DNA of 40,803 nucleotides from Proteromonas lacertae (taxonomy: Eukaryota): positions 62,001 to 102,803 of the forward strand of contig NGBS01000025.1 of the NCBI GenBank assembly GCA_002245135.1. The letters run 5' to 3'. The notes under the pieces were generated by a model. The model saw only the letters and a program-made list of their open reading frames with translations, was not told where the DNA came from and searched no databases. The first letter of the stretch is position 1. Every line of letters begins with the position of its first letter. The translations under genes and the position numbers were made by a program. Of this stretch, positions 2,886-40,803 are shown one piece after another.

Positions 2886-2981
2886 GTTCTAAGATTTAAA
2901 TCAAAATTTAAATTTCACTCGATAGTCTAATTTCTCTTCAATATAAATCAAATGTAATTGAAATATTCTTTTTGTATAAAT

Positions 2982-3614
2982 TGTTGTGTGTCGTTTGTCA
3001 TATTTGGCCATTTGTCTACCAGACACTTTTAAAACAAACTAAATATATATTCTTACTTGTCTTGATTAAAAATTGTTACTTTTATACTTACTTTGTTATT
3101 TGACCTACCTCTGCAGTATACTATTTTGTTAATATAAATAGTTTGAATATTTGCGCCGTTTGTTTTCTAGAAATTTTGAAGCAATCTAAATGTATATTTA
3201 GCTAATATAAACTAAAATACATTAGCTGAAATGATTAGAATATAATAATTATTAAATCTTTCTATATAAAAAAGGAAATGTAAAAATAGGCTTGAGTGAG
3301 GTTTGATTTTTTATTTTCTTTTTCAATTTAAATGTGTTATGATCAACATTAAGTTGTTCTAATCATTTCAGCTAATGTATTTTAGTCTATATTAGCTAAA
3401 TATGCATTTAGATTGCTTCAAAAATTTCTAGAAAACAAATGGCGCAAATATTCAAACTATTTATATTAACAAAAAAGTATACTGCAGAGGTAGGTCATAT
3501 AACAAAGTAAGTATAAAAGTAACAATTTTTAATCAAGACAAGTAAGAATATATATTTAGTTTGTTTTAAAAGTGTCTGGTAGACAAATGGCCAACTATGA
3601 CAAACGGCACAACA
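2982..3614. mobile_element. Non-autonomous DNA transposon (MITE/foldback) with ~258-bp terminal inverted repeats
   Basis: 2982-3240 is the near-perfect reverse complement of 3357-3614 (TGTTGTG...CACAACA ends), around a ~116-bp non-coding spacer. Confidence 0.9.
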
Positions 3615-3865: not shown

Positions 3866-5592
3866 ATGATTTATAGAAATGATATTAATGGATTTAGAGG
3901 ATTATCATTTCTGTTTATATATTTATATCATCAATATCCAAATATATATTCAAACTGCTTTTTTGCTGTAGATATATTTATTCTGCTTTCTGGATATTTT
4001 TCTATATATTCTCAAAGCTCAAAAGATTTTTCTGAATATATTTCTAACAGAATTAAAAGAATAATACCTATTGGTTATTTGGTGTTGTTTTTATGTTATT
4101 TTAGCGCAAATATATATTTATCAAACTCTAAATTGGAAATCATATATAAAGATTTATTATCTTCATTTTGTGGTTATTCTAATATTCATTTTTATCAAAA
4201 GTCAATAGATTACTTTGGAGATCCATTAAATCAATCATTAAATCTTCATTACTGGTATTATTGCTTACAAGAACAATATTATCTTTTGTTTGCAGTATTT
4301 ATATTACATAGAAATAATAATGTACAATATATTGTAGAATTTACATTATTTTTATATTCGTTTGTGTTTACAATACATAATTACTCTAATGTTAATAAAT
4401 TGTACTATTTAATTAATTCTAGATTATGGGAATATATTTTTGGTATTTTTGTTTATAATATTAATATTAATGTTAGCATAAATAATAGCATATTATCGAA
4501 TTTATCTTTACTAATATATATTTTACTTATACTTTATCCATCAAAAATCAAAAATCATATTATTCCTCCAAATTTTATATATTTAGCAGTTGGTTCTTCT
4601 CTTCTTCTTAATAATTCAAGCACAATAATAATCTCTTATTTATTTCAATTTTTGGGTAAAATATCTTTTTCAGGTTATTTAATTCATTACCCTATATTAT
4701 TTATGTATAAAAGTAATAATGTAGTAAAGAATCTATGCAAATTCTTTATTACTTTAGTATTATCATTCATATCTTACGATTGTATTGAAATAAATGCATA
4801 TATTAAAAATATAAAATCAAATAATGTATTTATTTTATTTATTCTACTTGAAACGTTTATATTATGCTATTTCAATAAAAAAATAAGAAGTTTATCATTT
4901 TCTGTAAGATATTTAACTAGGACAACTGCTCTTAGTGATTGGAAAAATTTAGAGCATTCATTTAAACCATTAAAACAAAAGATTCTTATGTTATGCAGTG
5001 GATTCCTCCTATATTAAAAAATGTCAACATAGCATATTATAATTTAGTTTATTACCATTATTGGATAAATAGAATAATATACAAAAATATCAGTAAATTA
5101 ATTATGTCAATTAAAGCGTTTCAAATTAAATACATTATTTTGTCAAATTATTTAGCAAGCTGCAATAAATGTCTTATGAAATTATATTCAGATTTATATT
5201 CTCCATTCAAAACTTTTATTGAAATACTGCTTCAGAAGGTATGTAATACTTTATATATCATTCAAGACAATCCATATCACAACAAAGATGTATTTATTAA
5301 TCCAAACGATGGTGTTAATTATACTTATTCAATTATTGGAATAAATTCCAGTGTTAATTTATTTCCCATATTTAAATATAATAAACTAAAATATATAAAC
5401 ACATTAAATTGGATTTGTAACAACAATAAATGTCAATTATTTAAAGATAATTATTCTGTTTATGTAGGACCACATCATCTTACTATTAGTTTTACACTTT
5501 CATTAAAAGATAAAATAAACAGAAATATTACTTTTGAAAGATTAAAATACATTATAAATAATACCATCATTTACAATAAAGAATTTCATTAA
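3866..5592 (+). CDS. Acyltransferase-3 plus SGNH-domain O-acyltransferase (OafA/OatA-like), frame break near 4980
   Basis: YRNDINGFRG, AVDIFILLSGY, RIKRIIP, LHYWYYCLQEQYY, SRLWEYIFG and LGKISFSGYLIHYP. The second frame supplies DSYVMQW (GDSH-like block) and a C-terminal GPHHLT. Confidence 0.85.
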
Positions 5593-7535: not shown

Positions 7536-7810
7536 ATGTTAATAATTATTTAATTATATAATTTTATTTATATACTTTCATGATTCTTTTTATTACTTCT
7601 TAATAAACAAGTGATATTTTTCTTTTTTTACTTAAACATTATATAAGAGTAAAACACATTTCATTGAATAAACCTCCTCAAATGTTCATAGCTTAACATA
7701 ACTATACTTAATAAGCATAGTTAGTATTATCTAAAATAGACAAAAAAGCTATTCAATAATTTCAAATAAGTAGAAAGGTAGAATATTATATTGTTAGATA
7801 AAATCTATAT

Positions 7811-8068
7811 TGTTGTGCGTCGTTTGTCATATTTGGCCATTTGTCTACCAGACACTTTTAAAACAAACTAAATATATATTCTTACTTGTCTTGATTAAAA
7901 ATTGTTACTTTTATACTTACTTTGTTATTTGACCTACCTCTGCAGTATACTATTTTGTTAATATAAATAGTTTGAATATTTGTGCCGTTTGTTTTCTAGA
8001 AATTTTTGAAGCCAACTAAATGCATATTTAGCTAATATAGACTAAAATACATTAGCTGAAATGATTAG
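7811..8068. repeat. Third (solo) copy of the MITE terminal inverted repeat
   Basis: Near-identical to 2982-3238 in the same orientation; no matching opposite arm found nearby. Confidence 0.9.
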
Positions 8069-17602: not shown

Positions 17603-17777
17603 TGAATAAATACTTCATCATTATTTATTTTTAAGTTGAATTTTCAAAAATCAAACATTTTGATATTTAATTTTATAGCAATTCTTCCAATAGTTAAATT
17701 TAAGGAAAATTATTTATTATTTATCTTAAATATAATTATGAGAATTTCATATAGTATATAAATGTGGCACAAAGTGT

Positions 17778-17825
17778 CAGAGTCCCAACGAGTTTTCTAG
17801 GGGTCTGTCCACTTCTAGATTTAGA
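17778..17825. repeat. Left copy of 48-bp imperfect direct repeat
   Basis: CAGAGTCCCAACGAGTTTTCTAGGGGTCTGTCCACTTCTAGATTTAGA; 39/48 identical, ungapped, to 20813-20860. Confidence 0.85.
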
Positions 17826-18063
17826 CCAATGTATAGCTATACTAGGTCCAATACCGAGAGAATCAGCACTTCCTTTTACTTGAAGGACACTGGTAAGTAC
17901 GACCTATGCATACGAAGCAGTGATTGTGAAGGTTATTCAACTCAAGTGTTCCTTCAACAAACACTTGATAGCAAGGTAATATCTCTTAACGATGTTACGG
18001 TCTTTTAATTACTTGTCTTCTTCTTCTACTATGATCTGTATCTGTATCTGGGGGTTCAGTTAC

Positions 18064-19308
18064 TTATACTATCTCGATGATCCCGTTCTCACTGATCTTT
18101 AACAACCTACCTGTCACGATGAAGAAGTAATGGGTAACATTCTTACTAGTGAGTGCATCGTTGTACATCTCAAAGGAGACCTTGATATCATTATCGAGAG
18201 GACGGCCACGCTGGTTCTTGATGTTGGTTAAGTCCGAGGTGGTAAAGTTAAGGATCTCAAGGAACTTCTCATTGAAGGGTAGGTCAATTGCCTGGTCATT
18301 GTAGCTACCCTTGATGAAGCTCTTCATGTGCTCGTAACTATTGTAAGTCTCCATGTTTTGGAAGTCAGGGTTGTAGTTAAAGTCATTGATCCACCACTTG
18401 AACTTAGAGGTCATCGCAGCAGGCAGAACATTACCTTCCTTATCATAGCATCAGTAAAGGATGAACTTTACGTAAGGTCCGATGGAACTATTGATATTGA
18501 AGGAGTAGTTGAAGCAGCTGGAGCTGTTACTTACTTGAGTTCTAACAACATGGACATCGTTGAAGTCCACAGGATTTGCAAGCAATGTCCTTGTTGTAGT
18601 TGGCCTTGAAGTAGATATCTCAAGACTTACCTTAGTCTCATCCTTTAGTGTAGCATCAACGATGTCCACCATCTTACCTTTGTCTTGCCATCGTATAGAG
18701 ATGTAAACCTTCTCCCCGAAGTAGACATCAATAGGAAGACTGAGGATGGTGTTAAACAACTCCTTGCAAGGGATCTTCATAAGCAAATCGAAGGCATCTC
18801 CATCTATTGTTTGTTAATAGTCATAATCATCATTAGCACCTCCCGTGAACTTCATTCCATTTTCAAGGACCTTACCTTTCTTATCAATCCAGACTCCATC
18901 GTAGTACATCCCATGATGAGCCATCTTACTTGCCTTACGCATAATCTTAGTCATGATACCTCGGAAGATCTCGTAATGCTCTTGAACCTTTAACAAGGAT
19001 ACTCCCGATTGATTGTAGACATGGATACTTCCAAGGACGAAGGTATCAGCTAAAATAACTTCCTTGAGACCAGCTGCTTCTACATATAGTCGATATTGTA
19101 AGTGGGACTTAGAGAAGTTTATAAAGTTATCCCCGGCAATCTCTAAGGTGACTTCATCGCTAAGACAATCCTTAGTAATCTCTATTCGTTGTACTTGACT
19201 TGCAACTAAAGGGATGAGTTGATCGAGAGCTACTTAGGGTTGCACTTCATCGATGAAGTCATGTTCCTGGGAGATGATGGAGGATGGACCAGTATGGATC
19301 TTACTCAT
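18064..19308 (-). pseudogene. Major capsid protein homologue (Polinton-like virus type), 414 codons with three in-frame stops
   Basis: ORFs 18996, 18786 and 18414 share one frame with ATG 19308. Stops lie at 19234-36 (TAA), 18814-16 (TAA) and 18451-53 (TGA). Colinear similarity blocks match 39807-40803. Confidence 0.75.
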
Positions 19309-19329
19309 TGTGATATTCAGGAGGTAATA

Positions 19330-20813
19330 AATCACTTTGGGAAATAATGCAATAGCATACTTACACTTTACGATAAGGCTTCTTGTTGAGTTCATTCTGT
19401 TGTCTCTTACTTAATCGAGCATACCCACAGGATTCCTTAAAGGACTTCTCTTGATTGAGTATGTTGAATAGAAAGTAGACTGATAAGAACCCGATGATAA
19501 TCAGCTTCTTGTAAGTTGCCTGTGACAAGTCCAGGTGATGTGCTATCCTGTTGATCTTAAGTAAGTACGGGACTCTTCCACTTGCACTAAATCTCTTGAG
19601 CTGTTGTAGTTGTTCTGAAAATTAAAGACTCCCAAGTACTGTCCATTGAAGTTCTGATATTCTTGGGAGATCAATAGATTGAGTTCATCTTTCACTTGGC
19701 TTCTTACTTCCTCGGGACACTCTTCTATGAACTCTTCATCATCATCATTGTCATCATTGTCAGTCTCTTTGGAATAGATGATTCCTTTACCTATCCTGAC
19801 TTTACTAGGAGCTGAGTCTGCTGTGTAGCTGTACTCGTATTGTGGTACATGATTACTTTGCCCTGAGTCTATCGGTAGTGTTGTGCTTGCTGGAGATGAT
19901 GAACCTGATGCAAGGTACACTGCTTCAAGAACTTCAGCTGCTCTAAGTACGTGGATCTTTGATTGTCTTGGATTGCATTTCCATGAACTCCATTGCCAGC
20001 TACGAGGTCTAAGTTGTTCTATCCTCCGATCTCTAAGCTTATGCTATCTACCATGGAGTTATTCATCTGGGTTAAGTTCTTGTTGCCTGATGCTTCTATC
20101 ACGTAGTTGACAACCTCTTGATACTTCTCCTTGAGCTCCTGGACTGATAGTTGATTCACCATCTCGTTCCTTAAGTAGCTGCTGGAATAGTTAACTCCTC
20201 CTAAGTTGATACTATCGGTGGTGACTTCTCCGATCATAGCTAATAGACCTCGCTTCATCTCCATCTCATTGTTAGGGATTACCATCACAGGTAAGCTTTG
20301 TTCCACGGGAAGAAAGCGCATCTCGACTCTTAGTTGTTGAACCATTATTCTTGCAATCCTCTTGTAATCATCTTGAGCACTTCCTGTTGCTGATCGGAAT
20401 AGAACTAGTTAATTCTCATATGGTTATCATATAAGTCATCAACTTCATCATACCACTCCTTAGATAAGTCTTCAAGGTGTAAGTCATTCGCTGGTTGTTG
20501 TGGACTGGAGATGTAATCTATTAGCTTATAGATGGTCATGGTAATTTGCTTAAGGAAAAGAATCATTGAGAATTGCTTATGCTCCGAAGGAGCTTAAGTA
20601 TGATATCAACATTGCCTGTTAATTGATGGCTCCACCTCTGGCTATTCCTCCACAGTGTTTTCTAAATCCTATCTTACGAGCAACGACAGCTACTTGTTGT
20701 TGTCCTAAGGCATCAGCAGCATTGTAAATGATCTTCTTGTCTTGTAGGAAGTAGACCCCGTAGGAGTAATCCTGTAGGCGTCTTATATAAATATGACTAT
20801 GGTACATTGTCAC
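19330..20813 (-). pseudogene. Degraded ORF(s) of unknown function upstream of the island capsid gene
   Basis: Consecutive fragments 20813-20619, 20345-20019 and 19920-19543 share the codon style of the capsid gene; includes an acidic DNDDNDDDEEF tract. Confidence 0.5.
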
Positions 20814-20860
20814 AGAGTTCTAACGAGTGTTCTTGAAGTCCGTCCCCTTCTAGATTCAGA
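20813..20860. repeat. Right copy of 48-bp imperfect direct repeat
   Basis: CAGAGTTCTAACGAGTGTTCTTGAAGTCCGTCCCCTTCTAGATTCAGA. Confidence 0.85.
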
Positions 20861-20994
20861 GTTGACCTTTACAAGGCCTTCATCGATGCAATCGATTTCT
20901 GTATAAATAAACAATATAAACATTAAATATAAAATGAAAGAAATGCTTATTAAATATCATTATAATGTGAATTACTATGTGATTGTAAAACTTC

Positions 20995-24990: not shown

Positions 24991-25604
24991 AGACAAATCA
25001 TTAATATCCAGAAATAGAGATTTATTATTATTATTACATTAATATTTGTTATTTTGAGATAGTAATCAATATAAATTAATCATCAAAATAACAAGTAGTT
25101 TATAAATATGTTAAATATAACTATTGAGTAGTTTGTAGATGAATTTTAATATATTAGTATAGATATTTATACAATTTCAACCAATCTTAGTCATAACTAT
25201 AGTAATTAAGGTAAAACAAGAAGCAGGAATAATATTCTATATAGTATGGTAGTTTGTATAAAGCAAATGTTACTCAGTATGTAATTAAAATAGATTTAAC
25301 AAAATAATGCTCGAGGTGTGACCGACCAACGGTCAAAGTTAGATTAAAGGTTTTACCTATAACTATAGGTTACCTATTTATACAACCCTGATAATAATGA
25401 TAAAAGTATATAAAAACCAAATGTTGTATCATAAGTTCTATATTACAAGTATTTTATTTATATTATTTTGATGTACAGTATTTTTCAATAACAATTAAAT
25501 CCTTCTCACTCAACTTTTCCAAGCCAAAGTTTTGTAACGAATATTTTCACATAAGAAGTTTTCTTTGTCATTCAATAATGCCGAGCTTCAAGCCTTAATC
25601 ATTA

Positions 25605-26087
25605 TTGATTTTCGCGCCAACTCCTTTTCAGCTACTGAATTACTCGTTACTGAAATATTCAGACATAACTGGTATAAAGCCAGAGAGACTCAGAAAGATG
25701 ATCCGAAAGTTACAAAAAGGAGAAGAAATCGATAAAGTGAATGTAAGCAAAGGCAAAATGAGACCTCTGGGGAAAAGTGATGGAGAGATCTTGTTAGAAG
25801 AGATCAAAAGAAACAATCGAGCAACGTTAAGACAACTTCAAGAAGCTATTAAAGCTAAAACGAATAAAGTAGTGTCTATAAGCACAGTTCAAAGAACATT
25901 AACAATGTATATGAAGAGAGATGTATTGCCAACAATTACATTAAAGAGGTTCATAAGCAGAGGATCAAGAGTTTGCGAGATAAATAATCTAAAGGAAGAG
26001 AGAAAAATAGTAGTTCGAAAATTTTTGGCATATCTAGAATCAGGTTATCGTCCCATCTTTGTGGATGAGTCACATTGGATATCTTAA
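25605..26087 (+). pseudogene. Tc1/mariner-IS630 transposase N-terminal half (HTH plus first catalytic D)
   Basis: NNRATLRQLQEAI...VSISTVQRTL (HTH) and RPIFVDESHW; truncated immediately afterwards. Confidence 0.8.
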
Positions 26088-27688
26088 TCATTTCATATTA
26101 TATTTTACAACCCTGGTTATTGTTATTGCTATTACCTATATTAAATATTTAAACGTATACAAGCACTTTATATTATGATGCAAGATATAATATAATCGGA
26201 ATATTATGAACAAATCTTTAAATTAAAATATGGTAATTATTATAAATATTAGATACAGAAAGAGATATTTAACGTGGTGCTTAACCTCTCTTAGAAACAA
26301 ATATGATGCAATAACTCAATTTAATCAAACAACACATCGTGCAATTAAATTTATAGTTAAATATATTATTATTAATATTCTGATATAGTCAATTGTATTA
26401 TTGGATGGAAAATGATGAAGTTTGTAACATGAAAATACGTGGAAAACTTCTTCAATTAAATAATTTCTTCTATAGAACTATTAATAACTCAGAATATATT
26501 CAAATTATATATCGCTATCAAAATTTATAAAGAAAATAGAATAACACCAAATGACTATAATATACTACCAAAAGTTATGGACTTCAGCATTTATAAAGCA
26601 AAAAATAGTTGTACAATTTCTGTTGTACAAAAAGCATATTCAAAATTTATCATAAAACCTAATGCATATACAAGACATACTAGACATCTATCACATGGGT
26701 TGAGCAAGGCAAATTTTATTTATATTTTATAAACACATAATTATTCTAATACTGATATGTCCTTTTTGTTTTATGTCCTTTTTTCGTGTCTATTCTGAAC
26801 TTATGAATAATCATAATTTAAAAGGGTTAGGGTTTCTAAGAGAGGTTATTGTAATTTTTGTATATCATTATAATAAAACTATTTGAATTTAGGTTTTCTA
26901 GAAGTAGATATTTTTTTTAATGTCGGGATAATAATAGTATCATGGTTTGCTTCAATAGTTTTATTATATATTGTTTCACATTTGATATAATATAACAAAA
27001 AATTGTATTTAGCTATTATTAATAATACGTTATTGTTTCAGTGTGTGAATGGAAGCTATTCACGAATGATTCATATTTTTCATTTTTCTCAAGAATTTAG
27101 TAATTTATTATTATTAATGGTAATATCATTTTTTTCGTTAAACGACTGGAAAGATTTATTCCTCCACTTTCTATTCTTACATTATCACACATAAGAAATG
27201 TATCATACAACTTCTATTTATTTCATTACATAATAATATTTATTATTAATGAGTTTAACATTAAATCAAAAAACATTTTTGTATGTTTTTTATTCGTTTA
27301 TGTTATAGCATATGTATTTACAGAATATTATGGAAAACCAATTTGAAAAAAAGTAACCAATGCATTTATACAAGCTACTTTCATTCTATTTCTCAATTTA
27401 ACTTTAATAATATTAATTAAACGTTTAATTAATATATGTATAACTGTAAGAATATCACTGTAGGTGCGTACCAGACTATTCTTAGGTGCCTTCTACAGGT
27501 AAGAATAAGCGATTTGAGTGTAAATTAGTTTTTGGTACGGGTTATACTGGAGCAAGTGGTGAATTTAAAATTGTGTATATATTTTTGTGTATGAGTAATT
27601 TTATGGGTTAAAATATTTTCTTTTGTTTTTTGTATATAATTTCATTTAACTTTTTCTTATTGTTTTTTATCAATCATAATTTCAAAAA

Positions 27689-28042
27689 ATGTCAAGAATT
27701 TGGATCGAGAATGTTAATATAGAAGATAGAAATAAGCGAGAAGATGAAGAATTTGAAAGAATCTATGCAATTATTGAAAGTGAAGTTGCTAGAATAGTAG
27801 CTCAACCATCACCACCATCACCTCCAGTAGTAATGTGGTATACATCTGATACAGCTGATGAGGATGATAGAAAGTATGAAGAATGGCGTGCAATTCATAA
27901 ACCAACTAGAGTAGCACAAGCAACCATACGCCCTAGAAAATGGGTTGATCCTGAAGAGGAGCGCAGAAAAACAAAGATGTTAAAGCGTTATGGCATTGAT
28001 GAAAAAAACATCATTGAAGAAAGACTAAGATTTCATAACTAA
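27689..28042 (+). CDS. Hypothetical viral protein (117 aa)
   Basis: Intact ATG ORF with charged composition and an A-rich leader shared with ORF 29297. Confidence 0.65.
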   Translation: MSRIWIENVNIEDRNKREDEEFERIYAIIESEVARIVAQPSPPSPPVVMWYTSDTADEDDRKYEEWRAIHKPTRVAQATIRPRKWVDPEEERRKTKMLKRYGIDEKNIIEERLRFHN

Positions 28043-28170
28043 TTCTTATATCATTGGTTTTAATTGAATTTTTGTTATTTGATTGGCTGAATAGAAATAA
28101 ACATAATATTACATAATTCTTTTCATTCGTAAATTTCTTGTGATTTTTGAAATAATCTGCATAAATTAAA

Positions 28171-28727
28171 ATGAGTGATATACAAAATGAACTCGATGTT
28201 AGTATTGAAAAACAAGATGAAATGCCTGATGTAAAATCATTAATTATTAAAGTATTTAAGGATATGTTGGATGGTATGTATTCTGTGATTGAAGAGTATG
28301 AAGATGATCCAAAATGGAGTAAACAACCAGGTGATGATATTGATATAACAATGGAAGAAGAAGAAGTGAAGGAAGAACAAAGTGAATCTAAATCTAAAAA
28401 AGAAAGGATATAACAAAGTCAGATCCAGATTCACAGATATGTAGTACTTGCGGTAAGAAGAAAGCTAATGATGAATTTGGTTATAAGAGTGAAGGTGTAT
28501 TCTATAAATCTTGTGCAGAGTGTAGAAATAAGAAGAAGAGAAGATATGAAGAAGGAAAGAAAGGAAGTGATAATAGTGGAGAAGATAAGAAGCGTAAAGT
28601 AGAGAATAGTTCCACTGCCGAGGGTCGACCAAAGGTAGAGGTTGCTAAAGTAGAAACACCTACAAGTTCTATCCCGGGGGTAGCTACAGTAGATCTATCT
28701 ACATCACCTACTTGTATAATTAATTAA
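28171..28727 (+). CDS. Acidic protein with CxxC...CxxC zinc finger (frame break near 28410)
   Basis: Downstream frame reads CSTCGKKKANDEFGYKSEGVFYKSCAECRNKKKRR up to TAA 28725-27. Confidence 0.6.
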
Positions 28728-28791
28728 CTTTTGGTTTAAAATTCATTTTTATATTTCTATACGTTTTTATATATAAATAATTTCACATAAA

Positions 28792-29119
28792 ATGTCATTT
28801 AATAATACACAATATTCAACTATGCTTAATGATATGAATGATACATTAACAAGTCTAAAGCAAGAAGGTCTTATATCATAGATATTGTCCAGCAGAAATC
28901 ACTGAGATATTAAATGAGCCAGAACCTGTAATAAATAGAGCTTTAGGTAAAACTACTATTGTTTCTGCTATTCCATTTACTTTAACACCTGAAAATAGTA
29001 GAATAAATTCCAGAAATGCTAGTGATAATGAAGATGAAGAACCATTAGAAACAGAAATAGAAATTATTCCTATTAATAAACCTGAGATTGAAATTCAAAA
29101 ACCATTCATAAATATTTAA
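28792..29119 (+). pseudogene. Small acidic hypothetical protein, broken near 28880
   Basis: ATG after CACATAAA; two fragments with protein-like composition. Confidence 0.45.
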
Positions 29120-29296
29120 TTTTATATAGTCTTTTTTCGTATTTGATTTTGAAAGTTATTTTTTGTACCCCCTTAAAAAATTACATAAAGAAAAACCGTT
29201 TTTTTCATTCACACTTTTCTTACTCATTTTCAGTATTATATTTTTTTCATTTTTTTACTTTAATAGAAAATTAATTATTCAATCATACAATCAAAA

Positions 29297-30468
29297 ATGC
29301 CAGCAGACAGAGTCAAACAACCAACCAATTCAGAATTATGCTCTCAGCTCCCATTAAAGGGACAGGCTTATGAGTTCTATCAGAAAGTGAGTCGTAACAT
29401 CCAGCATTTAAAGACATTTTGCGACGAAATGTATATTCAAAGTTTGGCTTATGATGACAGCAAAAAATCAAAGAAGAAGCAAAGTCCACCACAATTCAAC
29501 TATATCGAATTAGAGAAGTCAGCTACAGCAGTTAATTATTGCTTTTCATGTAAGTTTGATAATCAGAAGTTAATTCCCATTAAACATCTAGAAACATTAG
29601 ATCAAAATGAGTATATGAATTTATACTTTAGTGACGATGAGATGAAGAGTATAGTAAAACCAAATGTAAAACAGATTAAACCTTTTATTCAACCTCAGTT
29701 AAAACAACAACAACCACAACAAGAACCACCACCACCAACTGTACCTCAAAAACCTAAAAGAGTTTATAAAAGAAGAACTGATACTGTAAAGAAACCTAAA
29801 ACAAAAGCAGTTATTGATAGTGATGATGAATTAGTTCATTTAAAGAAAAGAAAGATTGTTAAGGATTCTGATTTTGTTGATGAAGAACCAATGGGTATAA
29901 TTGTGAAAGATAATGAATCAAGAACATCTGCTGATGATTTATTAAGTAGCCAAAGTCCTACCTTTACACCTCCAATGTCACCAAGGTCTGATACTACACT
30001 TCTTGATGTTACTGATATTGATATTCTGGATGGTGAATTGAAATATTTTAATGCTGAATTAACTAAAAAAGATGAAGAAAAACAAAAAGAGATAGAAGAG
30101 AAAATTAAACATCAAGATGCAGAGAGAAAGAAACAAGAAGATGAAGAAAAAAAGAAAAAACAACAAGAATAAGAAAGAGTTAGAAAAGTACAAGAAGAAG
30201 CAGAGAGAAAAAGAAAACAAGAAGAAGCAGAAAAGAAAAGAAAAGAAGAATTAGTGGTTATTAGAATGCTTCAAGAAGAAGAGAATATGAGACAACAAGA
30301 AGAGTTAAGAAAGAAATGGGTATTAGAACAAAAGAGACAAATGGAAGAAAAGATGAAAAAAGAAAACGATGAATTAGAAAAGAAAATGGAAGAAGAGTTT
30401 AAGAAGAGAATTGAAGAAGAGAATTGAAGAAAGCTGAAGAGTTTGAGAAGATGATGAAGAACTTATAA
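29297..30468 (+). CDS. Pro/Gln-rich and Glu/Lys coiled-coil viral protein; internal TAA at 30170-72
   Basis: 291-aa ORF; the same frame continues as E/K/R-rich coiled coil after the stop. Confidence 0.65.
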
Positions 30469-30604
30469 GTATTAATATATACTTTAAATTTGTCTGGTTT
30501 ATGCTTTAATCCATATACTTGAAAAAGCACTTTGAATTCATTACTTTGATGAAAATTGGTGTTTGTTTAATATGTTAAAAATAACATAAATAAAAACATA
30601 AAAA

Positions 30605-31765
30605 TTATACGAAATCATTAAATAGCGAATTTTTCTTATATACTCTACCATATCTACTTTTTCTACCTTCTGGTGCTGGTTGAATATCTGCTTCTATAGG
30701 TTGTGCTTCATTATTTATACTATGAATTTGTCTTAATCTAAACTTACCATTTGTGGTAATACTATTAACTGGTACTCTTTTAATTTCATGTGATTTGAAC
30801 CTATATGAACCTATATCTCTAGGATTGAACTCTTTAGGTATTGTTCCATCCAAGTTCTTAACAGAATATGAAAATGGTCCAACTTTGTGTATTTGGTATA
30901 CTTTATCAGTATAATAAGTAGTTTTTTGAAGTTTGTTATCTCTACGTTCTTTTATTCTTACAAAATCATCAGCTTTAAAATGAGTATCACTTTTACGCTT
31001 CTTTAAGTTTCTAGCATGGGATTCTTTACACAATCTATCTTGGACTTCAAAATCATTGAATACTTCATTTGGAGTTAGATTATTGAGTGCAGAATGTGGT
31101 TTTGCATTGTAATCATCTACAACAGTATATGCTATATTACACAATGATTCAATATTGTTAATTTTATCAAATTCTTCATCAGAAAATGTATTAATTTTTC
31201 TATAAAACATATCTTTAATAGTTCTCACACATCGATCCAATATTTTCATTATATTATGTTCATTACGTTCTTTAAATATAAATCGTATATGATTTTTATT
31301 AAACAAATCTAAAAATTTCTTACCATAGATAATACCAGACTCTTCATCTGACAATATACTTCCTACAAAACGAGCGTTTTCATCCTTAGATTGCATACCC
31401 TGATAAAACCATTTTTCAAACACTGGATACACATCATTTTCTGATTTAGATTTAACATAATATATCCAACACTTACGACTAACAACTTCTATAATTAACA
31501 AAAATGGAACTTTTGTATTGTTGAAAAACACTAAATCTATCTGATATGACCCAGGTAACTTTTCAATTTCATATTTAATTCTATTCCTTTTAGTTGCAGT
31601 GATTTGATAATCTGGTTTAGACTCTACAAGTTCACTACTAGCTTTTTTAATGTCAGATTTTTTAAAGTTATTCTCAAGTTCATTTACAGAGAAATTAATA
31701 AAGTCTCGTTTGTTTAAATAACCATATGTTTTGTATAACTCATTTATTTTATCTTGTAGTGACAT
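30605..31765 (-). CDS. Retroviral-like (rve) integrase, Polinton type, intact
   Basis: GSYQIDL, IEVVSRKCW, ILSDEESG, LDRCVRTIK, YNAKPHSALNNLTPNE and the FKADDFVRI SH3-like tail. Confidence 0.9.
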   Translation of the reverse strand: MSLQDKINELYKTYGYLNKRDFINFSVNELENNFKKSDIKKASSELVESKPDYQITATKRNRIKYEIEKLPGSYQIDLVFFNNTKVPFLLIIEVVSRKCWIYYVKSKSENDVYPVFEKWFYQGMQSKDENARFVGSILSDEESGIIYGKKFLDLFNKNHIRFIFKERNEHNIMKILDRCVRTIKDMFYRKINTFSDEEFDKINNIESLCNIAYTVVDDYNAKPHSALNNLTPNEVFNDFEVQDRLCKESHARNLKKRKSDTHFKADDFVRIKERRDNKLQKTTYYTDKVYQIHKVGPFSYSVKNLDGTIPKEFNPRDIGSYRFKSHEIKRVPVNSITTNGKFRLRQIHSINNEAQPIEADIQPAPEGRKSRYGRVYKKNSLFNDFV

Positions 31766-31833
31766 TCAAAACAATATATATAAAATATGAATGATATATA
31801 TTTAAAGAATTAATGAATTAAAATATAATTAAA

Positions 31834-32610
31834 TCATTCTTCTACCTCTCCCAAATCCTTATCACTTAAAGTGTTACCACCATTACCAAAGTTAATAGAC
31901 TTAGCAGCACTAATAAAACCATTACTAATTACTTTCTTAGCAGGGAATGGTCTACGAGTACTAATTAAATCACTATCTTCTATCTTAGTTCTCTTAATTC
32001 TTGGAGGTGAAACAAATTTGCTTTGATTAGCTTGTTCTTTCTTAATTTTCTTCTCATTACTTCTTCTAATAGTTGTAGCTAAATCAGGATTTTCATCATA
32101 ACCAACAATATCACTACAAACTCTATGATTAACAAAGTTTTGAGTACCATTACTCTTAATAGAGATTTGATTATCAACAACACTTACAGCAATTTTACTA
32201 CCAACATCAACATTAGATGGAACTCTATAGTTACTATTATCCCATATCATAATAGAATTGAAATTGTGGAAGTATTTAATACCATGTTGAGGTTCTCTAC
32301 ATCCTACACTAATCAAATATCCACGAATGATTTTTTCTATAAAGTCATTCTCGTTTCTATCATAAATTTGTTTCAATACATATTTCACTTCATCAGCTGA
32401 ATATGTTTCAAAATCTCTTCCATTATTAATTACAACTTTATGATCCAAATCATGAACAAAAGTAATCAATACATATTGACTAGTTTTAGTAGGCTTAACT
32501 GTAATACTCTCAACAGTTCCTTTAATAATCCACTTGTTACATAACTTTGAATTTTTGTAATAATCACTGAATTCTACATCTGTAGCTTCATAGGGTGTTT
32601 CGTTACTCAT
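31834..32610 (-). CDS. Hypothetical protein, possible OB-fold ssDNA-binding protein
   Basis: WIIKGTVESITVKPTKTSQYVLITF and SIMIWD...VGSKIAV resemble OB strands; acidic C-terminus; divergent from PolB. Confidence 0.45.
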   Translation of the reverse strand: MSNETPYEATDVEFSDYYKNSKLCNKWIIKGTVESITVKPTKTSQYVLITFVHDLDHKVVINNGRDFETYSADEVKYVLKQIYDRNENDFIEKIIRGYLISVGCREPQHGIKYFHNFNSIMIWDNSNYRVPSNVDVGSKIAVSVVDNQISIKSNGTQNFVNHRVCSDIVGYDENPDLATTIRRSNEKKIKKEQANQSKFVSPPRIKRTKIEDSDLISTRRPFPAKKVISNGFISAAKSINFGNGGNTLSDKDLGEVEE

Positions 32611-32694
32611 TTTATATAAGGGAGAGATGAAAATAAAAATGATTAAAAAATGTCAAGAAAAATGAAAATGAAAGTTTCTTTTTATTTTTAAAGT

Positions 32695-32724
32695 CGACCA
32701 ATCAAATCATCCGACCAATCAAAT
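32695..32724. promoter_or_regulatory. Tandem CGACCAATCAAAT (CCAAT-box-like) in divergent intergenic region
   Basis: Exact 13-mers at 32695-32707 and 32712-32724; core ATTTGATTGG also at 28077-28086. Confidence 0.45.
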
Positions 32725-32769
32725 TTCATATTTCCATTTTTGATTTATTTCGCAAATTCTGTCTATATA

Positions 32770-35700
32770 ATGAGCAAACATAAAAAGCTTTTAAAAGCAT
32801 TTTTTAAGCTTCTAGAACAAACTTTTAATAAAAATAAACATCATAAACATAAGCATCACCATCATCATAAACATAAACATACAAATGAACCACCACCACC
32901 ACCTCCACCTACACCACCAGAAGAAGCTCCAAAACGAAGATTAGCACCATTATTTAGTACAGATGCTATTCAAAATAAAAAAAGATACAATAATGATATA
33001 CCAATAATCAGTGATACATTCTTTGGTGGATTAATGCCTTCTTCCCTACCAAAACCTAACCAAAATCAAAGATTTAATGATAGAATACGTGATGCTAGAG
33101 AAGTTGATAAATCATCTCAAGGTGTTACCAGGAAATGGGTTTTCAATTATAACAATAGAAATTACAGTACACCACAACAATGTTATCATGATTTTGTTAA
33201 TAATAGTGATATCAAAGATATATTACATGAACTAGCTGATACTATGAATATGATTAAATTTTTCTTTATTGTACGTTCAATTTATATACCTGATGAGTCT
33301 ACTGACAGTGATGATGAAGTTTCCATATTTAGTCGTAGTAGACTATGTGAAATAACAAAAATGTCTACTGTAGGTGAAATACAAACTATACTGGAGAATA
33401 TATTTACACAAATATCAGAAGATGATTCAAATCATCCTCAAAGTGGTCTTACTTTTGCTAGAGTCAATACTATTGAATTATATGTAACAAAATTTAAAGT
33501 GATACGTGGAAGCAGTTTTATTGTTTTACCTGCTAAACTTCAAGGTCTTAGATGTTTTATAAATGTAATAAATGAAGATAATGAATGTTTTAAGTGGAAT
33601 GTACAATGTTCATTATATTCTAATAATCTACAATGTAATAAAGATAAACCTGAAAAATACAAAATGTATGAAAAGAAACATGATTGGAGTATGTTAACAT
33701 TCCCTGTTGATGCTACAGACAATGAATCTATTGATAAGTTTGAAACAAAGAATCATCTAAATGTGAATATATTTTATATTGATATTGCTAAAGATAAAGA
33801 AGAAATATTCTTACCCATTCATTTATCTAAACAAAAGAAATCTAAAAAATATAGTGTTGTAAATCTATTGCTAATAAAAAATGAAGATGGAAATTCACAC
33901 TATGTAACAATAAATACCTTACCTGCTCTATTTAGAAAAATGATAGATAAAAAGAATAATACTAATAATATATTTGTGTGTCCATACTGTCTCTTCTATA
34001 CTTACGATGATGGATCCTTTAATAGTCACCAAATATATGACTGTCAAGATAAAGAGAATGTATTAAGATTATTCCCTGATAAAGATGATAAAGAAAAATC
34101 ATACTTAAAATTTAGACATTGGACTCACCTCCAAACATTGCCAGTTGTTATGTATTATGATACTGAAACTTATTTTGTACCATATGATAATGAATTGAAT
34201 TTAAGTAGATATAAATCTATGGAAGAAATAGATAATAATGATACTAGAATAGAATTATCAAAAACTGAGCAATCTATTATGGCTAGGCATAAGCTTTATT
34301 CCTACTGTATCTATGTAGATAGTAAAATACCAGATATAAACAGTTTTACTGTGATTAAATATAAACAAAATGAGGATCATAATATTGAAAATGATTTTGT
34401 ATTGGATATATTAAATATATATGATCAAATATGTACAGTTTACAATTATAGACTAGCTAATCCTAAACCTTTTGATGGAGATGAAATAGCTAAGGATATA
34501 CATAATAAAAAGAGAAAATGTGATTTTTGTGGTAAACCATTTAATTCTATTGATCATGTAAAGGTACTTCACCATGATCATTTCACTGGTCATTATATTG
34601 CTTCAATTGGTAGTAATGAGAATCTAAATATTGATATAAAAAAATTAAAAGTACCAATAATAGGTCATAATGCTATGAAATATGACCAGCATTTCATAGT
34701 AAAGGAATTAGCCAAATTTGCTGCAATAACTAATAGTCCACTCAATATTATACCTAATACAGATGAAAACTATAAGTGTATACAATACAAAAATTTGGTG
34801 TTTATTGATAGTTATTTATTCTTAGCAGGTTCTCTAGCAAATTTAACTAGTGATCTAAAAATTACAGCAGAATTAAATAATACTAAGAAAGAAAAATTCA
34901 AAACAATTTATGAGAATTTTAAAGAATATAATGGACATTACCTAGATGATGAAAATATTGAAAAATACTTACTTCAAAAGAATTATTTTCCATATGAGCA
35001 TATGACATCTCTTGAAGCTTTTGAAGAAAATTTCAAAGATCTTACTATAGATGATTTTAAGTCTAAATTGAATGATAATGAAACTATTAAACCTGAGGAA
35101 TTTGATTTTGCTATGGAAGTAAATCAAATATTTGGATTTGATAATATACGTGAATACAATTTATTTTACTTGAAAATCGATGTTTATATCCTTCAGTCTA
35201 TATTTAATGATTTTAGAGATAATATATTTGATACTTTTCACATAGATCCTTGTTGGTATATTTCATTACCCAGCTTATCACTTGATTTATTCTTACAAGT
35301 ATCTGATGTGGAACTTAAATTATTTTGTGAACCTGAATACTATGATTTTATATTGAATGGTTTATACGGTGGATTATCATATATTGGTAAGCGTAAGGAA
35401 GATGCAAATAACAAATTTATGAAAAATTATGATGAAACTTTACCTAGTAAATTCTTATTATATCAAGACTATAATTCTTTATACCCTTCAGTTATGGCTT
35501 CTTGTAAAATGCCTTTAGATGAACTTTGAATTTATTGATCCAAATTCTATTACATTAGAAAGTATACTTGATTTGCCATATTATGAAGAAATGGATCAAG
35601 ATAGATTAGAGAATAATGATTTTGGTTATATATTAGAAGTTGATATCGAGTTACCTATAGAAGCTACAAGACAAGTTTAAAGAATACCCATTGTTACCTG

Positions 35701-36854
35701 AAAGGAAGAAAATACCTAAAGAATGGTTATCTGATATACAAACTGAAAGAGCTGAAAATCTTGGTATTATACATAAAGAAAGAGGTACTTACCATGCTAC
35801 TGAGAAATTAATAACTGATTTGTATCCTAAAGAAAAATATATAATACACTACCAAAATTTGAAGTTTGCAGTTGAACATGGCTATAAAGTGGGTAAAGTG
35901 TACAGAATAATGAGATTTACTGAAGGTCTATATATGGGTAAATATATTAATACTATGGTACAAAAAAGAGTCCAAGCTAAAGAAAACAATCAAAATACTA
36001 CTGCAGACTATATAAAGAAATTAATGAATAGCTTTATACGGTAAATTTATGGAACGTGTTGAAAAGAGAAGTAACATATCTTTAATTACTAATGAAGATC
36101 AAATGATTAATGCTGCATAGTGATCCATGGTTTAAAGACTTTATCATTAATTGAAGGTGATTTAAGAATTGCACATTTTCATAAGAAGCTATATGAAATT
36201 AATAAACCTATACAAATTGGAATGGTTATCTTAGCACTGTCTAAACTCAAAATGCAAAAATATTGGTATGATGTATTAGATAAAAAAATATGGATCTGAT
36301 AAGCTAACACTATGTATGACTGATACTGATAGTTTACTTTTCTCAGTTGAAACTAATGATATTTTTGAAGACTTAGAGGATCCTATCTTTAATAATTGGA
36401 TTGATGGAAGTAACTTGAAAAATCCCTATTTAGAAAATTATAAGTTAGATATACATAGAGCTGTTCATTCAGGTACATTGAATCGATTAAAATTTGAAGA
36501 AGCAGGATAAGAATAATAAAAACCTGTATGTTATAAACAAAGTTTATAGGATTAAAATCAAAGTGCTATATATACGAAAAGGAGAAAGTGAATGATGATT
36601 CTGATAATAATACTAATACTGACAATCGTTGTAAAGGTATTAATGTGAAAGTTTCTAGAAAAATAACTTATGATATATACAATGATTTTGTTGAAGGTGC
36701 TAGTAAAAGTCAAAAATATGAAGTATGTCAAATCAAATCAATACATCATAATGTTTATACAACAGTACAAAACAAAACTGGCTTAACCTATTATGATGAT
36801 AAAAGATATTTTTTTGATAAATACAATACATTGCCATATGGATATAAAAAATAA
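32770..36854 (+). CDS. polB: Protein-primed family B DNA polymerase (Polinton/adintovirus type), frameshifted after 35527
   Basis: GSSFIVLP..INVINEDNECFKW, ExoI YYDTET, EndoVII-like CDFC...HHDHFTG, ExoII HNAMKYD, ExoIII YLKIDV, motif A DYNSLYP, motif B KKLMNS(L)YGKF, motif C TDTDS and terminal DDKR...TLPYG. Confidence 0.93.
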
Positions 36855-36889
36855 TAATTAATACTTATATTATATAATTGTTTTTTTCT

Positions 36890-38706
36890 TTAAAATAGCT
36901 GCCACCTCTTCATATTGAGGTACAAATTGAGGTACATTTGCAGCTTACTAATAAATTTTGAGCCATATTGTGGTGTTTGTTGACTATATTTTCTTGCTTT
37001 TTGTGGTATAACATGAAAAGTGTTATCGTATGGATTAATATATTCATCACTAAACTTTTCAGTTTTTATAGAATCTGCCATTTTATTTAATCTTGTTTTC
37101 ACTGAATTTATAATATTTTCTCTCACATTTTCTCTTCTTCTCATTCTATTAGTAGTTCTATTCATATCTAAATCTTTATTTACTGTACTACGTTCTATAT
37201 TTTTTATTATTGCCTTACGTCTCTCTATAAACTTCCTCACTTGATGGATTATTATCATTATCTTCACTATCACTATTTGCAGGTGATGCATTATAAAATG
37301 CATTAACATTTCTATCAATCAAATCTGCAGTAATTGATGGATGAGCAGGAGGATAATTATCTGGTGCAACATATCTCCAATTTCTATGATCTGCAACATT
37401 CATTCCACATAAGCTGGAACTGATCTTCTATGTTTAATTTGACGGTTAAGTTGCGTATCTAGAGCTCTATTCATTCTAAAAGTTATAGGATTAGCAAATA
37501 TATTCGTATTGATTTGTCCTTGTGGTACATGAGCTTCTGTTAATATTTTTTGTATAGTTGCTAAATAGTTATATCTATATCCAGTTCTATTATCACCATC
37601 TGGTAATCCATAAAATTTCTTCTATCAGGATGATATGGTAAAGTATATTCATTATCATTTTGATAATTACCACTTAACTTATCTTTTAATATTGGTATAT
37701 AATATAAAGCTAATATATACAAATCAGTTACACAGTTGTATATGATTAACGCAATTGAATAAGCTGTTTCTTCTTTTTGATTTGTTAAATACCAAAATTT
37801 AGTTCTCATTAAACGACCTATATAGAACTTTAACTTATCTTTCAGAGAATCACAAAAGCTAATTATATCATAATTTGCCATTGTTGTTATTATTTTCATT
37901 ATTATCATTGTTATTATTTCCATTGTTGTTATTATTGTTATTATCATTACTTCCATTGTCTGCATTTACTAATACTCCTCTTACCATATTATCATGTCTA
38001 TTTTGTATAATATTTTCTGCTCTTATTTCAGCTGCACTATTATAATGTTCATTATTCATTATGTTAAAATCATTTTCTGGTTCTGGATGTCTTTCATCAA
38101 TTTCATAATGTGTTTTTTTAATTCTTCTATTTTCAAGCTGTGTAACACCTATTCTCTCTTTTGGGTGTAAAACAACAAATGGATTTCTTTGTAATATAAA
38201 ATCAGATGCCATACACAATTTATCAATACCATCTGCTATACGAGTTTTAAATATTCCACATTCTCTTGCATTAGCAGAATTTTCATTTCCTGCTAATTTT
38301 GGATTATAGCTTCTAATGGTTTGCCATGTGCAAAAGGACCTGTTACAAATAAATTCTTACACCAATTAAACATTTTCATATGTTCATCATATAAATTATA
38401 TATTCTATTAAACTCATGATTAGGCCAACCTATTGGAATAAGTCTATATTGCATAATCAATGCTTTGTTAAATCTTTTCACTTCTTGATTCACATAATTA
38501 TTTAAATCATCTTCACTTATATCTTGAAATGGTATGACTTGATTCCTTCTATGTCTTCTTCTATGTCTTATTCTGCTCATATCAATAGGTACATTGTCTT
38601 CATTTTCTTCATCTTCATATTCATCATCTGTTGGTTCATCTTCTTCATCATCATTTGAATTGTTAGCTTGTGGTTGTGGTGGTGGTGGTTGTTGTTGCGG
38701 TTGCAT
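36890..38706 (-). pseudogene. Fragmented hypothetical viral gene(s) with Q/P, D/E and N-rich tracts
   Basis: Five consecutive or overlapping minus-strand ORFs that change frame, consistent with one or two frameshifted genes. Confidence 0.55.
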
Positions 38707-38779
38707 ATATTAAAAATATATTAAAGAATAATTCAAATAAAATTATATTTTAATATTTCTCAACAAATTATAAAACATA

Positions 38780-39798
38780 ATGCAACCAAAAGATAGTAAC
38801 AACATATTAGCTAATAGAAGAACATTGTTCTTAACAACATCAGACTATAATGAAAAATTATCTAATAAATGGGTTAGATGTATTAATACTCCAACTATTA
38901 CTGAAAAATATCAATATATGAGTTTAATTACTGCAGTTATTCCAAATAACTTCTATACAGTACAAGATGAAGTAAATGATCATATTCTCTTTAATTTCAC
39001 TTACTACGAATGCATAAATCCAGATAAAACAAATCCAGCAGAATGGGAAAAACCTGAAAATCAGCTTGGACCTTATAATAGAACTATTGATATTAAAATA
39101 CCTCAAAGAAATTATACAGGGAAAAGAATTATTAGAATTTTTTTAGTAATAAGTTACTATCGTTAAGTTTTGTAGAAATATCAGGTGCAGTAGGACCATT
39201 ACCAGATGAAGATCTTTCACAAAACTATCCGTTTCGTAAAATAGATGATCAAACAGATATACTTCAATTTAGTGGAAAGTTCAGAAAATAGATTACACTT
39301 AAAATTCAAATACTTAACTCATTTTGGTAGAATATATTTCACAGATTTTAGCATTGAATTCCCTAACTTAGTTTATAAGTTATATGGTGTAGATGAGATG
39401 AACAAAAAGTTAGATATTTATCATACAGCAGCTCCAATTGAAGCATTTTTTAATAATATTGATATAGTATATGACAAAATATTACCTAATCAACCGTCTT
39501 TAATTTGAGGTGTCATTCATACAAATTAGATGTGATTGGGTTAATAGCGGTGGAGAATTCAATGGTTTTAGCTAACATACCTATAAAAGATCTTAATACT
39601 AACTACACCACATTCACCAATCCTCAAATTGAATGGACAGCTAAGAAGATGCAATATCACGAATATCAACGAATGACTATATCAGTCACACAACAAGATG
39701 GTTATGCAATTTATTTAAAAAACTTACCCATTTATTTTGAGATTATTTGTATTAATAAATTTCTTGCTATTTTTAAGTATTTTAATCTTTTAAAATAA
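38780..39798 (+). CDS. Minor capsid (penton-like) protein, frameshifted
   Basis: TLFLTTSD, MSLITAVIPNNFYTV..NDHI, IKIPQRNYT, VLANIPI and MTISVTQQDGYAIYLKNLPIYFEI match the PLV/virophage penton pattern; lies immediately upstream of the major capsid. Confidence 0.75.
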
Positions 39799-39806
39799 CA
39801 TAAAAT

Positions 39807-40803
39807 ATGTCAATCACTGCTATACCTAATTCACAAAAGCATGAAAGCATTGTGCCAGCTTACATACCAATTTACAACCATATTTTAGTTACTCCAAACC
39901 AAAGCAGGAATGAGACTGTTTTATCTTTAAATTCAAACAGTGATGCTATTACATTTGAAATATCTGGTGATAATGTGTTAACTTATCAAAAAGCTATTTT
40001 GAATGCATATTAGATTATACTACAGGTCAAACTAGAGCTCATGCTGCTGCAGATTCAGGTAATTGGGATATGCCTTTTGTACCTAAAAGAGATACTAGCG
40101 GCAAATAATTTAGATAAACTAACATTGAAGAATACTATGAATTTTGGTACATTAAAAGTATACAACAAAACAGGAACTTTGCTATGTGATTTGGATACTA
40201 GTTATAATGAATATAGAGATTTAGCTCATGAAAATTGCAAATCAATTTCCTTATGATTTAAAAGAACCAGATTATTACAAGAAATATTTGATGGTTTAGG
40301 ATTTAATACTGCAAATCAAAAAATAGGTGAAAATTTATTATGTCATTCAGCTAATACATTAAATCCAAGTGGAGGTGTTCAAAATTATTATGTAATGCAA
40401 AATGGTATGACAGATACATTACATGGTCAAATACTGTGTAGATTTCATTTTGCAGACATATACAATACTATTTTAGCTTTGAAGAATGATATTTATTTTG
40501 GTGAAGTCATTTATATTCAATTCACATTTGCACCTATAATGAATTGGGTTCATCATAATGATGGAGATAAATATATAAACCAATGGCAAGCATTTTTAGG
40601 AATGAAAATAGTTAATCCTCATCTTTATGTTTGTTATAACAAAGATCCAACTTGCAATGCCAATACCATCAATTATTCAACTCATCATCCTATGACTTTA
40701 CTGATTTTAACATAGTTCAAATAACTAAAGATCCTATTCCAGGTAATAGTACTTTTAACTATAACTTCAGTATTAATAGCAGCATTGGAAGTTATGTTAA
40801 GTT
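39807..40803 (+). CDS. Major capsid protein (putative double jelly-roll), frameshifted and 3'-truncated by window
   Basis: Follows the penton gene. ITFEISGDN, LKVYNKTGTLLCD and NTILALKNDIYFGEVIYIQFTF recall PLV capsids; homologous to 18064-19308. Confidence 0.72.

What the first reader, a model, noticed from the sequence alone, without database searches (positions are those of the whole stretch)
27410..40803. Endogenous Polinton-like virus in a short-intron protist genome
Integrase, pPolB, penton and MCP are the established core of Polintons/PLVs. The pPolB has the EndoVII-like insert known from Polinton/adintovirus-type enzymes, while the capsid pair looks PLV-like, suggesting a mosaic lineage. 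Packaging ATPase and protease are not visible in the window. The integrase and 920 codons of PolB are intact, suggesting relatively recent activity.
Basis: partly seen in the sequence, partly recalled or inferred. Interest (0 to 1): 0.72.

Follow-up and report, generated by a model that had tools for sequence, protein, structure and literature searches.

The report
Integrated Polinton-type virus in gut-type protist
About 13 kb of a small DNA virus (integrase, protein-primed DNA polymerase, a predicted capsid gene) lies next to host genes of an AT-rich single-celled eukaryote, likely a Blastocystis-like gut protist; it is a new lineage of a known kind of virus, and many breaks in its genes are likely sequencing errors rather than decay.

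Summary
The element is real. From about 27.4 kb to the window end lie an intact rve integrase, a Polinton-type pPolB (with a degenerate EndoVII insert), an unconfirmed penton, and a double-jelly-roll major capsid gene cut off by the window end. No ATPase or protease is in the window. PolB, integrase and capsid each have close relatives only among unnamed Logan proteins, and PolB forms its own long-stemmed clade. The 'mosaic' make-up is not new: it was described for a Blastocystis MELD virus (PMC8502044), and such mixing is common in these viruses. Two additions: (1) the 13 breaks mapped in PolB and capsid are all single-base frameshifts, with no stop codons and no excess amino-acid decay, so they look like assembly errors and the copy may be younger than it reads; reads were not available to test this. 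(2) A second, GC-rich, decayed capsid-bearing insert sits at 17.8-20.9 kb. A 26-bp palindrome lies at the left boundary. Host identity is inferred, not shown. New member of a known kind; moderate interest.

The parts
27410..27435 (.). 26-bp perfect palindrome at or near the left boundary; possible terminal palindrome
   Evidence: Longest in window (next 16 bp); 3 of 300 Markov copies reach 26 bp or more; composition change point 27455. It also overlaps the weakly aligned tail of a host acyltransferase remnant.
27689..28042 (+). Unbroken ORF, 117 aa, unknown function
28171..28727 (+). ORF with CxxC...CxxC ribbon, one frame switch near 28405
   Evidence: (DZR E 0.036); no homologue to verify
28792..29119 (+). 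Short ORF, one predicted frame switch
29297..30468 (+). Proline-rich and coiled-coil ORF with one in-frame TAA at 30170 and frame switch(es) near 30425
30605..31765 (-). rve-type integrase, 386 aa, intact; acidic triad D77, D140, D177 by alignment (third residue D, not E); Polinton-like C-terminal part, no chromodomain found
31834..32610 (-). Intact ORF, 258 aa, unknown function
   Evidence: single-sequence model unusable (pLDDT 30)
32770..36854 (+). Protein-primed DNA polymerase B, about 1358 codons when read through with X: likely terminal-protein domain, likely vOTU (C273, H377), exonuclease with degenerate EndoVII insert (580-620), polymerase motifs; 919 unbroken codons, then 8 single-base frameshifts between about 35520 and 36540
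36890..38706 (-). Two or three unknown ORFs with at least 5 predicted frame switches
38780..39798 (+). Candidate penton / minor capsid gene, at least 3 predicted frame switches; identity rests on position, size and recalled motifs only
   Evidence: negative or inconclusive
39807..40803 (+). Major capsid protein gene (predicted double jelly roll), first about 330 codons, cut by the window end; 5 single-base frameshifts, no stop substitutions
17756..20905 (-). Separate GC-rich (41%) insert with a homologous MCP (18064 to about 19275; 3 in-frame stops, no frameshift in 403 codons) and 70-bp imperfect direct repeats at 17756-17825 and 20791-20860
26746..27450 (+). Host flank: broken acyltransferase-3-like remnant (weak)
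   Evidence: weak alignments to two host paralogues; Pfam Acyl_transf_3 E 0.09

Best explanation
The stretch from about 27.4 kb to the window end holds an integrase, a protein-primed DNA polymerase and a predicted double-jelly-roll capsid gene beside eukaryotic host genes, and is likely the left part of a young integrated Polinton-type (MELD) virus of an undescribed lineage in an AT-rich, likely Blastocystis-like protist. Shown: gene content, homology, break positions, composition. Inferred from the families involved: the rve integrase joined the linear genome's ends to host DNA; after release the polymerase would prime on its own N-terminal protein domain, cut free by the built-in vOTU protease, and copy the genome end to end; capsid and penton would form an icosahedral particle filled by an A32-like ATPase that should lie beyond the window end. 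The EndoVII insert is likely a dead passenger. The dense single-base frameshifts in the last 5.3 kb are likely mostly uncorrected sequencing errors near a contig end or in a repeat (about 60-65% for this step alone).
For: PolB: 5 relatives at 41-73% over most of the query plus fragment P0067, all Logan-only; next hits about 30%; six-row clade SH-aLRT 100, stem 1.0 (quick tree); all 7 motifs looked for are present, one of them carrying an X; C273 and H377 sit in conserved columns, matching the TP-vOTU-Exo-Palm plan (PMC11161782 passages). Integrase aligns with a canonical Polinton integrase (prob 58%, E 1e-4). Capsid: Atlas 0.95-0.96 to DJR capsid clusters for P0121; Foldseek of the homologous island MCP ranks DJR capsids in the first 11 PDB rows and most named top BFVD rows. 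Breaks: 8 of 8 in PolB are +1 (sign test 0.008), 5 in MCP, 0 stop substitutions; window-only changes at invariant columns 2 of 123 in the broken part against 2 of 139 in the intact part; all 8 fall in the last third (post hoc p 1e-4); the island capsid decays the other way, 3 stops and 0 frameshifts (Fisher 0.002). No intron-like signal at any of the 8 PolB breaks. Element GC3 of 0.15-0.17 matches host GC3 of 0.13-0.19.
Against: No reads, no genome and no right end, so integration (TIR, TSD, empty site), copy number and error status are untested. The left 28.1-30.5 kb also shows at least 4 predicted frame switches and one true in-frame TAA, which suggests some real decay. AT-rich protists can have high indel-to-substitution ratios (own knowledge); at 3 substitutions per indel the missense test is not significant (p 0.12). 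MCP breaks go both ways (2 and 3). The capsid model has pLDDT 41 and TM-scores near 0.2, was made for the island copy, and the Atlas recognition value (1748) is below its reliability mark. Penton unconfirmed. Host naming rests on GC and gene types; tortoise Blastocystis match the GC (21-23%) but their introns are described as longer than 30 nt (PMC12129017), whereas the two seen here are 23 and 27 nt.
Confidence: 0.8

Rival explanations
1. Same element, but a truly decayed fossil: the frameshifts are real mutations from an indel-rich mutation process, and the clean 30.6-35.5 kb core is chance or a patch converted from a younger copy.
For: Frame switches and one in-frame stop also left of the core; neighbouring acyltransferase remnant, Tc1 fragment and second viral insert are broken, so this is a decay-prone region; missense test weak if indels are frequent.
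Against: 0 stop substitutions for 13 mapped frameshifts, no excess missense change, 8 of 8 same-direction in PolB, strong clustering, and opposite pattern in the island capsid.
Confidence: 0.3
2. The viral part is a free or co-sampled virus genome joined to a host contig by misassembly near 27.4 kb.
For: Error-like breaks rise toward the window end; a palindrome sits at the junction and such hairpins can mislead assemblers (own knowledge); no TSD or second copy is visible.
Against: It encodes an intact integrase; codon third-position GC equals the host's; a related capsid insert is embedded between host genes on both sides in the same window, so this virus group does integrate here.
Confidence: 0.1
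3. It is a member of the described Blastocystis MELD virus 3996 group rather than a new lineage.
For: Same described make-up: Alpha-type PolB, integrase and virion genes unrecognisable by sequence, long PolB branch (PMC8502044 section 3.4); an unnamed MELD virus protein ranks third in the BFVD search (12% identity).
Confidence: 0.3

Closest known systems
Blastocystis hominis MELD virus (Starrett et al. 2021, PMC8502044; named 'Blastocystis MELD virus 3996' in 10.1101/2022.05.25.493380)
   Same: Alpha-adintovirus/Polinton-type PolB plus integrase plus virion genes not recognisable by sequence; PolB on a long branch; host possibly of the same group.
   Different: Sequence not available here, so relatedness untested; no named match among hits. 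This copy is seen beside host genes, while a 2026 review calls the source of the earlier genomes unclear (PMC12835684).
Group 2 Polintons / Alpha adintoviruses (Polintoviricetes)
   Same: pPolB homologous at about 27-31% with EndoVII-type insert; integrase homologous.
   Different: PolB is a separate long-stem clade; insert degenerate; integrase has no chromodomain and a D at the third acidic position; MCP does not match the one Maverick MCP tested (prob 0.3%; that ORF was labelled MCP by gene order).
Rumen hybrid virophages (RVP, PMC4409740)
   Same: Gut-associated, Polinton-2 pPolB joined to a non-Polinton capsid module.
   Different: RVP lack an integrase and have a typical virophage MCP; here an integrase is present and the MCP (about 480 aa by overlap of P0121 and P0122) has no Pfam virophage match.
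Endogenous PLVs and virophages of Halocafeteria seosinensis (10.64898/2026.07.28.741278)
   Same: rve-bearing inserts clustered with other elements; terminal palindromes next to the insertion site.
   Different: Their palindromes (52 nt in subtype 5) go mostly with non-pPolB replication genes; here a 26-bp palindrome would go with a pPolB, and its terminal position is unproven.

Membership tests
Polinton/Maverick (Polintoviricetes) | Protein-primed PolB | tested here: met
Polinton/Maverick (Polintoviricetes) | rve integrase | tested here: met
   below Pfam cut-off, third acidic residue D
Polinton/Maverick (Polintoviricetes) | Maverick-type MCP | tested here: inconclusive
   No match to one canonical-looking Maverick MCP; shallow profile, single target
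Polinton/Maverick (Polintoviricetes) | Packaging ATPase and cysteine protease | tested here: inconclusive
   Absent from the window, but the element is cut at 40803
Polinton/Maverick (Polintoviricetes) | Long TIRs and target-site duplication | not testable with these tools
   Right end missing; no genome held; left end has no second copy in the window
Polisuviricotina in the broad sense (Polintons, PLVs, virophages) | Double-jelly-roll MCP | tested here: met
   Three weak lines agree:
Polisuviricotina in the broad sense (Polintons, PLVs, virophages) | Single-jelly-roll penton | tested here: inconclusive
   negative or uninformative on fragments
PLV (Aquintoviricetes) | MCP in a PLV cluster (Bellas profiles) | not testable with these tools
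   Profiles not held; fold and feature hits spread over MELD, virophage, NCLDV and prokaryotic DJR capsids
Virophages (Virophaviricetes) | Virophage-type MCP | tested here: inconclusive
   No Pfam or PDB sequence hit; mavirus and Sputnik appear among fold and feature hits but not above other DJR capsids
Blastocystis MELD virus group | Sequence clustering with Blastocystis MELD virus 3996 | not testable with these tools
   Sequence not retrievable; supplement cut when stored, 0 hits for 'Blastocystis'
pPolB with active EndoVII/HNH insert | Two zinc-binding pairs and catalytic D-H motif (residue roles recalled) | tested here: not met
   Insert homologous but second zinc pair and the Asp are replaced (alignment)

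The most novel reading that the evidence does not exclude
A near-intact, multi-copy integrated virus of an unnamed capsid lineage confined to gut Opalinata (Blastocystis-like protists), which has entered this genome at least twice (27% and 41% GC forms), carries a palindromic tip despite protein-primed replication, and could be the source of the virus-like particles long reported in Blastocystis.
Probability: 0.2. Interest if true: 0.62.

Novelty: new member of a known kind. Interest (0 to 1): 0.4.

Why it matters
Endogenous Polinton-like viruses are common in protists, so one more is modest news. Its value is in host linkage and lineage: PolB, integrase and capsid each match only unnamed assembled proteins, so this window ties an orphan virus clade to a eukaryotic chromosome. 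If the host is Blastocystis-like, it bears on the open question whether the viral sequences and particles reported from Blastocystis belong to the protist (PMC12835684). It is also a caution: frameshift counts in raw assemblies can make a young virus look fossil.

Tried and rejected
No whole genome is held. Sequencing-run search for 30604-40600: none was listed, so no reads were laid; this is no evidence either way. Related-locus scans: 0 loci in 5 scans of viral contigs, 0 in 2 of genome contigs, 0 in the first metagenome scan and 4 distant loci (23-28% to P0004) in the second; none of the 4 matched the MCP, integrase or penton queries. Phage collection tblastn with PolB: no match. PDB sequence searches for integrase, MCP profile and penton pieces: nothing meaningful. 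The profile search of 1.84 billion representatives never ran, so capsid family depth is untested. Model of the 258-aa ORF unusable; my idea of an OB-fold single-strand-binding protein is unsupported. Introns as the cause of PolB breaks rejected: alignment is colinear and 0 of 8 sites show a short GTA..TAG (36, 125). A ciliate-type code was not tested by a call; long standard-code ORFs and frameshift-type breaks make it unnecessary. Island ORFs other than MCP show no similarity to the element. Exact look-ups of 6 host and 2 viral ORFs: 0 of 8 in the collection. Earlier-findings look-ups by place, sequence and words: nothing in 4 of 5; one search gave one lead. A literature search for host gene types in Blastocystis gave no support.

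Full report
Setting. The window is 22% GC host DNA packed with glycosyltransferase, LicD, FkbM and acyltransferase-3 genes. Two candidate introns of 27 and 23 nt are visible by eye in a UDP-sugar pyrophosphorylase gene. Two stretches differ: 17.76-20.9 kb at 41% GC, and 27.4 kb to the end at 27.6%. The host is probably Blastocystis-like: tortoise isolates are 21-23% GC, though their introns are described as longer and variable (PMC12129017, passages). This naming is an inference, about even odds.

Genes. The integrase (30605-31765, minus, 386 aa) is unbroken. It has a weak rve hit, one relative among 1495 candidates (P0132, 59%; cluster of 7 Logan proteins) and aligns over 225 columns with the integrase of L003, a canonical-looking Polinton from a metagenome. 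The acidic triad is D77, D140, D177. The polymerase starts at 32770. Of 150 hits among 7835 candidates (120 listed), five are 41-73% identical over most of the query and one fragment is 82%; all six are Logan-only; the next are near 30% and include animal proteins. In a quick tree of 36 rows (35 of the 120 hits, after a coverage filter to 110 and thinning at 62% identity) the window and P0001-P0005 form a clade with SH-aLRT 100 on a stem of 1.0 (the careful search did not finish). Conserved C273 and H377 fit the vOTU domain of the TP-vOTU-Exo-Palm plan (PMC11161782, passages); this domain call is inferred. The EndoVII-type insert is homologous to that of relatives but has lost the second zinc pair and the Asp of the D-H motif (residue roles recalled). 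HNH inserts in Polinton polymerases are known (10.1101/2023.08.22.554363, passages).

Capsid. A 152-aa piece found 2 relatives among 80 candidates (P0121, P0122); the window's gene matches P0121 at 215 of 322 residues and is cut by the window end. No Pfam, PHROG or PDB sequence hit exists. The Atlas places P0121 at 0.95-0.96 with DJR capsid clusters, with a low recognition value. A poor model (pLDDT 41) of the homologous island protein retrieves DJR capsids in the first 11 PDB rows and mostly capsids among named BFVD rows, at TM near 0.2. Together these support a DJR capsid but no subgroup. It does not match the presumed MCP of L003. The ORF upstream is a plausible penton by position, size and recalled motifs, but no tool confirmed it. 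ATPase and protease are not in the window.

The breaks. Against P0067 the last third of PolB is 435 of 503 identical and carries 8 single-base frameshifts, all +1, and no stop substitution; the MCP carries 5 frameshifts and no stop substitution. At columns invariant in four relatives the window alone differs at 2 of 123 in the broken part and 2 of 139 in the intact part. All catalytic motifs persist. The island capsid shows 3 stops and no frameshift (Fisher 0.002; only 2 of the 3 stops lie in the well-aligned part). A codon-model tracker, which recovered 7 of 8 and 5 of 5 known breaks, adds at least 3 switches in the penton candidate and 5 in the minus-strand ORFs, but also at least 4 switches and one in-frame TAA left of the clean core, and several in the island's other ORFs (unverified by homologues). 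So the right-hand breaks look like assembly errors, while some real decay cannot be excluded; with 3 substitutions per indel the missense test gives only p 0.12.

Left end. A perfect 26-bp palindrome at 27410-27435 is the longest in the window; 3 of 300 simulated windows reach that length, and the host-to-virus change point falls at 27455. Terminal palindromes are described for endogenous virophages and PLVs of Halocafeteria, mostly those without pPolB (10.64898/2026.07.28.741278, passages; lead). The palindrome also overlaps the weakly aligned tail of a broken host acyltransferase, so it may be host sequence. No TIR or TSD can be tested.

How it works. Most likely an integrating linear dsDNA virus: the rve integrase inserts the genome; the polymerase primes on its own terminal-protein domain, released by vOTU; capsid, penton and an unseen ATPase package it. 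Gene content is shown; every step of the cycle is inferred. Whether it depends on a giant virus is unknown.

What is known. Starrett et al. describe the same combination in Blastocystis hominis datasets (PMC8502044, section 3.4 read whole; supplement cut). Rumen virophages join Polinton-2 PolB to a virophage capsid without integrase (PMC4409740, passages). Module swapping is frequent (10.64898/2026.10.13.758929, passages). PLV is a catch-all and divergent capsids often escape profiles (10.64898/2026.06.19.733378, outline and first part of results). The large protist survey PMC10120064 has no mention of Blastocystis in its main text; PMC12129017 has none of such elements in the passages found for 'viral' and 'virus'. 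In searches 16, 69 and 110 the only listed papers tying Blastocystis to such viruses were Starrett et al., a preprint citing that virus (one passage) and a review (PMC12835684, passages); the library omits most subscription journals.

Verdict. Real, and a new member of a known kind. The additions are a host-linked orphan clade, the likely artefactual breaks, a second related capsid insert and a possible palindromic tip. Interest 0.4.

Noticed in passing
window 17756-20905: Second viral insert, 41% GC (MCP GC3 0.51 against about 0.16 for host and main element), between host genes; MCP 32% identical to P0122 (E 8e-40) with 3 in-frame stops; 70-bp imperfect direct repeats (76%) near both ends; other ORFs unrecognised. 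Looks like a separate entry of a related virus, reduced to about 3 kb.
   Followed up: partly
window 25400-26087: Tc1/mariner-like transposase fragment (Pfam HTH_Tnp_Tc3_2 E 1.4e-4), 32% GC, truncated after the first catalytic Asp region.
   Followed up: no
window 2977-3238, 3359-3614 (inverted), 7806-8068: Three 96-97% identical copies of a 260-bp repeat, two of them facing each other; MITE-like.
   Followed up: no
window 3866-5592: Host acyltransferase-3 ORF and a downstream SGNH-like ORF (label recalled) overlap across an apparent frameshift near 4990 with no visible intron; error or pseudogene.
   Followed up: no
window 1-24000: Dense cluster of mostly intron-poor glycan-modifying genes (GT92, galactosyltransferase, LicD, FkbM, DUF1647, nucleotide-sugar transferase, acyltransferase-3); CpG observed/expected about 0.4 in host and 0.05-0.5 in the element.
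   Followed up: no
L002 1-8367: 22% GC metagenome contig with a 1550-aa pPolB and an Ulp1-like protease ORF (label by motif), distant from this clade.
   Followed up: no
L003 1-13429: Near-complete canonical-looking Polinton (pPolB with EndoVII, integrase with chromodomain, presumed penton, MCP, protease, ATPase); used as a control.
   Followed up: partly
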